Source: the human T2T-CHM13v2.0 reference genome, Homo sapiens. From it: a stretch of DNA of 64,000 bases. Below the pieces are notes generated by a model. The model had not been told where the DNA came from, did no database searches, and was given only the letters and a program-made list of their open reading frames with translations. Shown piece after piece: positions 5,201 through 8,200 of the stretch. Within the stretch, counting starts at the first letter, position 1; the number at the start of each line of letters is the position of its first letter. Both the position numbers and the translations under genes were made by a program. The stretch lies in assembly GCF_009914755.1 (NCBI RefSeq), contig NC_060940.1; one strand, given 5' to 3'.

Positions 5201-8200
5201 GCCTAGGATTCAGGTGAGGGGCCTGGCCGCCGTAGGGCCGACAACGGCGAGGAGGGCGCCAGCTTGGGGAGCGGATGGAAGCTGACAGAGGAGCCACCGC
5301 TTCCACCGCCCCCGCCCAGGCGCAAGGGCCCCCTGCCTGCCGGGCCCCCCCCGGAGGACGTGCCTGGGCCCCCCAAACGAAAGGAAAGGGAGGCAGGGAA
5401 TGAGCCTCCCACCCCAAGGAAAAAGGTGAGCCACGGAGCACGCTCACTAGGCTTGTCCTGAGGAATTCTGGGAGCTGTAGTCCTGGCTGGTTCTGTGGGG
5501 CTGTGTGGGCCTGGGAGCGTGCTCTGTGGGTTCCCCAAGGACTGTTGGGAGATGTAGTTCAGGAGTTGGGTGGGGGGAGGATAGAGCATGCTCAGTGTGG
5601 AGGAGGGGGGGGACAGGTGAGGTGAGCTGGCACTGCAGGAAGCTTTGGGAGCCCTGGGTGGGTTAGGGAGGCAGGAGAGAGCATGCTCAGATCATCCCTG
5701 CATGAGAGGAGGGAGGGGCTGGAGAGGGCCTGAGGGGAGGAAAGAGGAGATGGAGCATGCTCAGTGGGCTAGGACGCTGGGTGCAAGGTGAGCATGCTCA
5801 GAGTTATCCCTGGGACGGGGGCTTCTGGGACTTGTAGTCTAAGAGGAGGGCATGGACCTTAGATTTCTGGCCCATGAGGGCCTAATGGGGTCTCTCCCTT
5901 CCTCCATATCTCCCTCTCACCCTGGTAGGTGAAAGGAGGCCGAGAGAGGCACCTGAAGAAGGTGGGTGGAGACGCCTGCCTCCTCCGAGGATCGGACCCA
6001 GGCGGCCCGGGCCTGCTGCCCCCCAGGGTTCTGAATCCGAGCCAGGCTTTCTCATCCTGCCACCCTGGGCTCCCTCCCGAGAACTGGGAGGTGTGCCGGG
6101 GACCTCCTCCCTCCCCTTCCCACCTTCCCTTGCCCCACCCTTCACCCTGGAGCCCAAGACCTGTCCCTTCCTGCTCACCTTGTTCTGCCCCAGCCCCACT
6201 TGGCCACGGTGGGTGTCCGGACACCTGGGATGAGTTGGGTGGGAGGGTGGGTTGAGTCCAGGCCACAGGAGCCCCTGACTTCCCAAAAACCCTTAGGGCT
6301 CATCTGACCTACTTGCCTCATCTTTCCAAGCCTTACAGGGGAGAGAACTGAGTTCAAATTTCTGTCCGACCGTTTACTCTTTGTATGATCCTAGCAGCTT
6401 GTCAGCCACCCTGAGCCTTAGTTTCTTTATCCATGTAGTGGAGATGCTGCTGCCTGCCTTGCCCCCTTATCTCGCAGAAGTGTATAAGTCTTACGAGGTT
6501 CTGAAAGGCAATGAGCTTTGTAAGCTATAAAATTTACCCAGATTGAAGGGAAATAAGGCCCAGAGAGGTTTGAAGACTTGTCCAAGTCACACAGTAAAGC
6601 CAGAATTGAGGTATTACTTGGCACGGACACTCAACACAGGAGTCCGCCTGATTGGGTCCAAATCCTGCCTCTGCTGTTTGTCAGTTTGTAACCTTGGACA
6701 AGTCACTTTGTGCCTTTAAGCCTCGGTTTCCTCATGTCTGAAAAGAGTGGCCCAGGTCACCACTGTGTTAGAATACTGTGAGGATGGAATGAGTCAGCCG
6801 ATGCGGGGTGCTGCTCGTGGGGCCAATCACTGTTACCCTCAGTTGATAGACAGACGCCTGCTCCAGCTGGTCCGTGTAGTGGATGATGAAGCAGGGGCTT
6901 CCCACAGCCATCCAGAGTTGAGGGCAAGCCAGGATTCAAAGCAGGGTCTCTCATTTCTCCATTCCCTACTGCTTTTGGAACTGCCTAAGCCATGCAAACC
7001 CATAAGGGCTGGAAATTATTTTATTTTATTTTATTTTTGAGACAGAGTCTCGCTCTGTCGCCCGTACTGGAGTGCAGTGGCGTGATCTCGGCCCGCTGAA
7101 ACCTCCACCTCCCAGGTTGAAGCAATTCTGCCTCAGCCTCCCGAGTAGCTGGGACTACAGGCTTGTGCCACCATGCCCAGTTTATTTTTGTATTTTTAGT
7201 AGAGACAGGGTTTCACTATGTTGGCCAGGATGGTCTCGATCTCTTGACCTCGTGATCCTCCCGCCTCGGCCTCCCAGAGTGCTGGGATTACAGGCGTGAG
7301 TCACTGCGCCCGGCTGGAAATTATTTTAATTAGCACTCTTCTGTTACCAATAAGAAAACTGAGGCCCAGGGCCTGGCAGTGGCTTTAGCAAGGTCTCTCA
7401 CTGTCCGGAGCAGAGCCAGGGCTGGAACTCAGGACTGTCCCTCGGGCTGTTCATCCCCTGGTGACTCCTCGGGGTAGGGGGGTGGGAAAATGTATCCCAG
7501 GCCCTAGAACAGCATCAACCCTGTCTCCCTGCAGAAACCAAAGCCGCCTTTGGCCTCTGCAGAGGGCCCAGCGGTGCCGTCCCCGTCCCCGCAGAGGGAG
7601 AAGCTAGAGCGTTTCAAGCGGATGTGCCAGCTGCTGGAACGGGTGCCTGACACCTCCTCTTCCTCCTCGGACTCAGACTCCGACTCCGACTCTTCGGGCA
7701 CATCGCTGAGTGAGGACGAAGCCCCCGGCGAGGCCCGGAATGGGCGACGGCCAGCCCGGGGCAGCTCTGGCGAGAAGGAGAACCGTGGGGGGCGGCGGGC
7801 TGTGCGCCCTGGCAGTGGGGGGCCCCTACTCAGCTGGCCCCTGGGCCCAGCCCCACCACCCCGGCCTCCACAGCTGGAGCGGCACGTGGTGCGGCCCCCG
7901 CCTCGAAGCCCTGAGCCCGACACACTCCCCTTGGCTGCTGGATCCGACCACCCCCTGCCCCGGGCCGCCTGGCTTCGCGTCTTCCAGCACCTCGGGCCGC
8001 GGGAGCTGTGTATCTGCATGCGAGTCTGCCGAACTTGGAGCCGCTGGTGAGTGGCCTGGACAGGCCTGCGTTCCGTGGCCAGCAGGCTTCCCGCTTGCTG
8101 GGTGACCTGCGGTAGGTCTCTGGCCCTCTCTGGGCCTTGCTTTTATATTGGGGATACTTCTCTAGTATGCACAGATTACAGTGCATCCTTCCGTATTTCC

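What the first reader, a model, noticed from the sequence alone, without database searches (positions are those of the whole stretch)
5436..5845. Hidden internal promoter in FBXL19 intron 5 predicted to make a CXXC/PHD-less isoform
Seen: within ~400 nt, three SBS-type motifs on the minus strand (5469-5483, 5546-5560, 5826-5840), four identical GAGCATGCTCAG 12-mers (5584, 5679, 5753, 5790) plus variants (5436, 5514), and strong donors with no evident acceptor (CAG|GTGAGG 5617, GAG|GTGAGC 5622, AAG|GTGAGC 5788). The first downstream in-frame ATG is 7622 (M313), giving a 382-aa F-box+LRR protein. Known: paralogues KDM2A/KDM2B use internal promoters for short forms; GAGCATGCTC is a CpG-free analogue of the NRF1 palindrome GCGCATGCGC. 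Inference: a methylation-insensitive promoter producing a chromatin-untethered SCF adaptor.
Basis: partly seen in the sequence, partly recalled or inferred. Interest (0 to 1): 0.72.

Follow-up and report, generated by a model that had tools for sequence, protein, structure and literature searches.

The report
CpG-free ZNF143 motif cluster inside FBXL19
One intron of the human FBXL19 gene holds a cluster of repeated DNA motifs found nowhere else in the genome, which likely binds the promoter factor ZNF143 and an unidentified partner and would start a shortened FBXL19 message or steer splicing of the neighbouring exon, though neither has been shown.

Summary
The sequence observation is real. Intron 5 (5426-5928) holds six GAGCRYGCTC palindromes and three full-length ZNF143-type (SBS) motifs. 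Genome-wide, same-strand pairs of the 12-mer within 120 nt (3 of 3) and palindrome+SBS composites (3 of 3) occur only here. The intron is CpG-poor (o/e 0.17), unlike most SBS clusters. Three strong donors lack an intronic acceptor.

NRF1 is doubtful: this exact double variant bound weakly in published ITC (PMC10810270). I found no transcript, TSS or protein evidence for an intron-5 first exon. The 382-aa ORF can also arise from annotated upstream-promoter exons, and the donors could be alternative exon-5 donors that introduce a stop.

New here: a strong sense-strand RNA hairpin (5428-5533, z about -6) covers the exon-5 donor, and exon 5 is skipped in mammalian models from platypus to gorilla.

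Best reading (0.4): a ZNF143-anchored internal initiation site with an unknown palindrome-binding partner. Rivals are an RNA-level splicing switch and a non-productive ZNF143 element. Public ChIP, CAGE and long-read data can decide this.

The parts
5436..5445 (.). Palindrome copy A (GAGCACGCTC)
   Evidence: region kept in the hyena read-through model P0009
5515..5524 (.). Palindrome copy B (reverse complement of A)
5584..5595 (+). 12-mer copy C
5679..5690 (+). 12-mer copy D
5753..5764 (+). 12-mer copy E; predicted to pair with F in RNA (p 0.98)
5790..5801 (+). 12-mer copy F; overlaps donor 5788
5453..5483 (-). ZNF143-type site 1 (core 5469-5481 plus tail)
   Evidence: tail in top 0.2% of intron 18-mers; core region kept in hyena translation
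5530..5560 (-). ZNF143-type site 2 (core 5546-5558 plus tail)
   Evidence: tail in top 0.6%
5810..5840 (-). ZNF143-type site 3 (core 5826-5838 plus tail)
   Evidence: tail in top 1.4%
5614..5627 (+). Two overlapping unannotated donors (GT at 5617 and 5622)
   Evidence: scores 12.4 and 10.2
5785..5793 (+). Unannotated donor (GT at 5788)
   Evidence: score 12.6
5428..5533 (+). Predicted sense RNA hairpin; A pairs with B in a stem of about 23 bp with one bulge and four G-U pairs, covering the exon-5 donor
5207..5425 (+). FBXL19 exon 5 (219 nt, in-frame cassette; cryptic donor at 5214)
   Evidence: annotation
5929..6090 (+). FBXL19 exon 6, the acceptor a new first exon would join
   Evidence: annotation; acceptor score 13.1
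7622..7624 (+). ATG of M293, start of the 382-aa F-box+LRR ORF
   Evidence: Met kept in 105 of 120 homologs

Best explanation
FBXL19 intron 5 contains a CpG-poor cluster of three ZNF143-type motifs and six palindromes that likely binds ZNF143 and an unidentified dimeric partner (probably not NRF1) and likely seeds local transcription initiation, from which sense RNA would splice from donor 5617, 5622 or 5788 to exon 6 and could encode a 382-aa FBXL19 lacking CXXC and PHD. Shown: the motifs, their uniqueness, their composite spacing (palindrome 21-26 nt before each SBS core), the donors and the ORF. Inferred, with my rough odds: ZNF143 occupancy (0.8); initiation in some tissue (0.5 overall); a spliced sense transcript (0.3-0.4); a protein (0.15-0.2).
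For: The composite is unique: 3 of 3 genome-wide matches; 12-mer pairs 3 of 3. SBS tails match a profile built from 34 sites in 18 CpG-rich loci. SBS pairs are rare (69 genome-wide), and 18 of the 30 loci examined are CpG-rich, promoter-like. Sequence after the palindromes is similar among the three SBS-bearing units and otherwise only for one pair (p 0.03) of 15, which fits selection on motifs rather than recent duplication. Copy A and SBS 1 persist in a hyena translation while the spacer between them differs. ZNF143 binds a 29-bp motif and stimulates initiation (PMC11754675). ZNF143 motifs act bidirectionally and U1 sites favour the mature sense transcript (bioRxiv 2023.06.27.546584). Sense strand: three strong donors in intron 5 and no poly(A) signal in 5400-12000.
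Against: No first exon is annotated here, and the RefSeq enhancer list shown in the gene table, if sorted by start, jumps from 952 to 12591. No intron-5-derived N-terminus among 120 listed homologs or in two targeted searches (1 hit of 18 candidates; 16 of 38). Only 620 of 4682 ZNF143 peaks lost accessibility on ZNF143 depletion. All SBS point antisense; ZNF143 motifs tend to share the strand of the dominant TSS and repress when downstream of it (PMC13655173), and SBS 3 lies downstream of all three donors. No TATA or CCAAT box. Weak Kozak context at 7622, plus upstream ATGs. Donor 5788 is partly a by-product of copy F. The hairpin at 5428-5533 is not explained. The 382-aa ORF is obtainable without this element.
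Confidence: 0.4

Rival explanations
1. The element works mainly on the pre-mRNA. Palindrome pairs form hairpins that mask the exon-5 donor and the decoy donors, and GCAUG words (RBFOX-type, motif recalled) and G-runs tune exon-5 inclusion. Use of the downstream donors would extend exon 5 into a premature stop.
For: Hairpin 5420-5540 folds at -65.7 kcal/mol, z -6.0 sense against -2.3 antisense, the strongest of 29 post-donor windows (next -3.1). It stays significant with the palindromes fixed (3 of 1000) or palindromes, SBS and donor fixed (1 of 1000). E-F pairing (p 0.98) covers donor 5788. Six GCATG against 0.76 expected. Of 32 mammalian protein clusters, 8 skip exon 5 and 2 use the 7-nt form. 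All three donors give a stop at 5459 if joined to exon 5.
Against: It does not explain three full-length ZNF143 sites or their fixed spacing to the palindromes. GCAUG inside a self-complementary stem would be poorly accessible. C-D pairing is only 0.09. The hyena 5' arm implies changes at several paired positions, and its 3' arm was not seen, so covariation is untested. An old inverted duplication could give the same stem.
Confidence: 0.25
2. ZNF143 binds, but the output is not a coding isoform. The element acts as an intragenic enhancer, a source of unstable or antisense RNA, or a roadblock that slows polymerase near exon 5.
For: All three SBS lie on the minus strand. ZNF143 acts as a roadblock and drives genic bidirectional transcription (PMC11754675). 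No isoform is annotated. An antisense U1-like site lies at 5180, with no antisense poly(A) signal until 1219.
Against: Published roadblock cases lie within 500 nt of a TSS, whereas this site is about 4.4 kb downstream of the selected TSS. Sense donors are enriched (9 of 5000 shuffles). No RefSeq enhancer is shown here.
Confidence: 0.2
3. The cluster is a neutral relic of old local duplications of a palindrome+SBS unit, now methylated and inert.
For: CpG o/e of 0.17 suggests germline methylation. Units C/E and D/F share short flanks. No functional annotation.
Against: Motifs are intact while spacers have diverged. No tandem array and no second copy in the genome. Motifs are kept in hyena.
Confidence: 0.1
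4. The palindromes are p53/p63/p73 half-sites (RRRCWWGYYY, recalled consensus), and the intron is a p53-family response region.
For: Five perfect half-sites against 0.2 expected. Copy A is followed after 3 nt by a perfect half-site at 5449.
Against: No two perfect half-sites are adjacent: spacings are 37-95 nt. A degenerate consensus does not require the same 12 bases four times. A and B break the CWWG core.
Confidence: 0.05

Closest known systems
ZNF143/THAP11/HCFC1 (SBS2, M4 motif) promoters
   Same: Three full-length sites, clustered like the two SBS cores at FBXL19's own main promoter (57, 161) and other SBS clusters.
   Different: Intragenic and CpG-poor (o/e 0.17 against 0.78 at the main promoter); the tails lack the usual GCG; paired with a palindrome found in this combination nowhere else.
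NRF1 site GCGCATGCGC
   Same: Same length, symmetry and AG flank; NRF1-type words sit near SBS in other loci (15 other matches), and NRF1 overlaps ZNF143 sites in vivo.
   Different: Both CpGs are replaced by transversions; this double variant bound weakly in ITC, while the single variant was about 4-fold weaker than wild type (PMC10810270).
KDM2A/KDM2B short-form intronic promoters
   Same: Same protein family; an intronic start removes N-terminal domains (PMC7000146).
   Different: Those have annotated first exons and promoter chromatin marks, and they keep CXXC. Here CXXC and PHD would be lost, and no first exon is annotated.
Dedicated homotypic motif clusters such as ZNF410-CHD4 and ZFP64-KMT2A (recalled, not from a call)
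   Same: A motif common singly (501 copies) but clustered at one chromatin-regulator gene.
   Different: No binding factor is identified, the position is intronic, and the motif is palindromic.
RNA stems and decoy donors that regulate 5' splice-site choice (general knowledge)
   Same: A long stem over a cassette-exon donor, unused strong donors downstream, and a stop codon if they are used.
   Different: The same bases also spell DNA-binding motifs; no covariation was tested.

Membership tests
ZNF143 binding site | ACTACANNTCCCA core | tested here: met
   3 cores; 0 of 5000 shuffles
ZNF143 binding site | Match to the tail of the 29-bp motif | tested here: met
   top 0.2, 0.6 and 1.4% of intron 18-mers, using a profile from 34 in-genome sites
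ZNF143 binding site | ChIP occupancy | not testable with these tools
   Supplements held for PMC11754675 and PMC11687419 were short and held no FBXL19 mention
NRF1 site | GCGC-N2-GCGC consensus | tested here: not met
   0 of 6 copies match
NRF1 site | In vitro binding of this variant | not testable with these tools
   Published ITC: weak binding, with AT flanks and NRF1 aa 54-284
NRF1 site | In-genome tolerance of C-to-A next to SBS | tested here: inconclusive
   7 of 15 other matches carry a one-sided variant, but position-2 A (3) did not exceed position-2 G (3) in an incomplete control
Internal promoter with alternative first exon | Capped 5' ends and promoter chromatin | not testable with these tools
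   No CAGE, ATAC or ChIP data available
Internal promoter with alternative first exon | Donor without upstream intronic acceptor | tested here: met
   also compatible with alternative exon-5 donors
Internal promoter with alternative first exon | Transcript or protein models starting in intron 5 | tested here: inconclusive
   None found; a non-coding first exon would be invisible to protein searches
CpG-island promoter | CpG o/e above 0.6 | tested here: not met
   0.17
p53-family response element | Two adjacent half-sites | tested here: not met
   Perfect half-sites are isolated; only A plus 5449 form an imperfect pair with a 3-nt spacer
Tandem or dispersed repeat | Array or other genomic copies | tested here: not met
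   No array; single genomic match (which skips very common words); intron not among the longest masked stretches listed
Known structured RNA or miRNA | Rfam match | tested here: not met
   5 matches, all E above 1 and far below gathering score
Conserved splicing-regulatory hairpin | Covariation across species | not testable with these tools
   No vertebrate genomes held; only a 20-codon hyena read-through

The most novel reading that the evidence does not exclude
An unidentified dimeric DNA-binding factor has one dense target cluster in the human genome. With ZNF143 it runs a CpG-free, methylation-proof promoter inside the gene for a CpG-island reader, producing a CXXC/PHD-less FBXL19 that could titrate CDK-Mediator or account for FBXL19's cytoplasmic SCF activities. 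The same palindromes fold in the long pre-mRNA to hide the short form's donors.
Probability: 0.13. Interest if true: 0.8.

Novelty: new variant of a known kind. Interest (0 to 1): 0.5.

Why it matters
FBXL19 is reported both as a nuclear CpG-island factor and as a cytoplasmic ubiquitin-ligase adaptor. Its CXXC-deleted form still binds CDK-Mediator through the F-box (PMC5997449). A regulated short form would reconcile the two roles and change how CXXC-deletion experiments are read. Separately, a genome-unique cluster of an unassigned palindrome is a clean bait for finding an uncharacterised transcription factor, or a case of one sequence read both as DNA motif and as RNA structure.

Tried and rejected
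Tandem repeat or dispersed element: rejected. Rfam or miRNA: nothing. Bat model P0014 (445 aa, no CXXC/PHD by Pfam; 60 cluster members, not listable) first looked like the predicted isoform, but its N-terminus maps to exon 4 in another frame plus 7 nt of exon 5. P0121, P0123 and P0124 are unspliced read-throughs. Literature: no paper on an FBXL19 intron-5 element, on ZNF143 binding there, or on the 12-mer in 10 searches, judged from listings and the passages read; this covers open-licence PMC and bioRxiv only. The Codebook paper's main text gave no matching motif string (figures not seen). An RBPJ peak in mouse Fbxl19 (PMC3945225, supplement legend) could not be placed on the intron, and intron 5 has no RBPJ consensus or TGGGAA. 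The reversed-pattern controls of the genome search are invalid for the palindromes because they contain CpGs, so I did not use them. The control covered only part of the variants. A resemblance to PAX half-sites (recalled) was considered and dropped: it does not explain the symmetry. Earlier scan findings were not available.

Full report
Observation. The 503-nt intron 5 of FBXL19 (5426-5928) contains four exact GAGCATGCTCAG copies, two reverse-complementary variants (5436, 5515) and three minus-strand ACTACANNTCCCA cores. None of 5000 dinucleotide shuffles reached the palindrome or SBS counts; 9 reached the donor count. The 12-mer occurs 501 times in the genome, yet all 3 same-strand pairs within 120 nt are here. 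For the degenerate 10-mer, 22 places have pairs within 150 nt: 5 here, 8 in two tandem repeats and 9 isolated. The palindrome followed within 60 nt by an SBS occurs 3 times, all here, at gaps of 23, 21 and 26 nt. The intron is not a tandem array and has no second copy.

ZNF143 sites. A profile of the 18 nt after the core, built from 34 sites in 18 CpG-rich loci, ranks the three tails in the top 0.2, 0.6 and 1.4% of intron 18-mers. They are therefore full-length matches to the 29-bp ZNF143 site (PMC11754675; Results part 1 of 3, one further section and passages read). SBS pairs are rare (69). Of the 30 loci fetched, some overlapping, 18 have CpG o/e of 0.5 or more, and 11 of the other 12 are repeats by my reading; intron 5 has 0.17. 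ZNF143 stimulates initiation, but only 620 of 4682 peaks lost accessibility when it was degraded, so binding does not guarantee a promoter.

The palindrome. It resembles NRF1's site in length, symmetry and AG flank. The full 14-nt palindrome accounts for 92 of the 501 matches (46 sites), about 2.5 times my rough chance estimate, and A precedes it in 15 of 32 half-flanks of 16 loci. However, PMC10810270 (Table 2 passage and one section read) measured this symmetric variant and found weak binding, against Kd 0.31 uM for wild type and 1.38 uM for the one-sided variant. My in-genome tolerance test was inconclusive. The word is also a perfect p53-family half-site, but unpaired.

Donors and ORF. Donors 5617, 5622 and 5788 score like real donors, and no intronic acceptor does. 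Two readings fit. As first-exon donors they would join exon 6 and leave ATG 7622 as the first productive start (382 aa). Its context is weak, and with donor 5788 an ORF from ATG 5757 overlaps it. As alternative exon-5 donors they give a stop at 5459. The same 382-aa ORF is the longest ORF of a transcript assembled from annotated exons including 5929-6092 (the exon combination is my assumption). I recall a 382-aa RefSeq/Ensembl isoform from an upstream promoter, which no call confirmed. TCGA SpliceSeq numbers an FBXL19 alternative-donor event as exon 8.1/8.2 (PMC6339785, table passage); if that is exon 6, the count leaves no exon in intron 5 (inference).

Homologs. Of 269 hits, 120 were listed. 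The internal Met is present in 105; 15 did not match my anchor. No model has an intron-5 N-terminus. The CXXC/PHD-less bat model arises from exon 4 and the 5214 donor. One hyena model reads 20 codons into the intron at 70% identity, keeping the palindrome-A and SBS-1 codons while the spacer differs. This is the only conservation evidence I obtained. Among 32 mammalian clusters, 8 skip exon 5 (including platypus, mouse and camel) and 2 use its 7-nt form; P0030 and P0031 were left out as gapped models.

RNA structure. The sense strand at 5420-5540 folds at -65.7 kcal/mol (z -6.0; antisense -2.3), the strongest of 29 post-donor windows. Copies A and B form the centre of a stem of about 23 bp with four G-U pairs. 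It stays significant when the motifs are held fixed (3 and 1 of 1000), partly pairs the exon-5 donor, and E-F pairing covers donor 5788. No Rfam family matches. Covariation could not be tested.

Mechanism. The DNA-level reading explains the SBS, their fixed spacing to the palindromes and the acceptor-less donors: ZNF143 acts bidirectionally and U1 sites favour the sense product (bioRxiv 2023.06.27.546584, passages). Against it, the sites point antisense and one lies downstream of all donors. PMC13655173 (passages) reports same-strand preference and downstream repression; the matrix orientation is my recall. The RNA-level reading explains the stem and the exon-5 skipping but not the SBS. Both could hold. 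I give 0.4 to an internal initiation site, 0.25 to a splicing switch, 0.2 to a non-productive ZNF143 element, 0.1 to a relic and 0.05 to p53-family sites.

Comparison and novelty. KDM2A/B short forms keep CXXC and have marked promoters (PMC7000146, passages). [quoted passage not shown] Ten literature searches found no description of this element. The supplements held for the two ZNF143 degron papers were short and did not mention FBXL19; full peak tables and bioRxiv supplements, which I did not see, may bear on occupancy. Other papers opened gave nothing on this intron (passages only). Verdict: a real, genome-unique, apparently undescribed element of a known kind (ZNF143 cluster) with an unexplained second motif; function untested; interest 0.5.

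Noticed in passing
window 57-69, 161-173, 874-886: The main FBXL19/FBXL19-AS1 promoter also carries two SBS cores and one relaxed match, on the plus strand, so the gene has two ZNF143-type clusters of opposite orientation.
   Followed up: partly
window 5211-5219: A strong cryptic donor 7 nt into exon 5 (score 12.4) is used in bat and beluga models; in the beluga model a second shift at the end of exon 6 restores the frame.
   Followed up: partly
window 5929-6092: The annotated 2-nt-longer exon 6 shifts the frame (stop at 7605) and would leave ATG 7622 as the start of the longest ORF.
   Followed up: partly
window 7251-8250: CpG-rich stretch (o/e 0.55-0.64) over exon 7, just downstream of the element.
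   Followed up: no
L019:1480-1660 (G000:C12): A local duplication of about 140 nt carries the palindrome twice, once as the full 14-mer, in a promoter-like setting.
   Followed up: partly
L032 centre (G000:C4:41188336): Full 14-nt palindrome with A and T flanks inside a CpG island (GC 0.71, o/e 0.76).
   Followed up: no
L055-L060 (G000:C11:64260902-64261406): CpG-poor tandem array of seven SBS separated by GT repeats.
   Followed up: no
window 5426-5928: 25 runs of three or more G on the sense strand, G skew about +0.35; possible G-quadruplex or hnRNP H/F sites.
   Followed up: no
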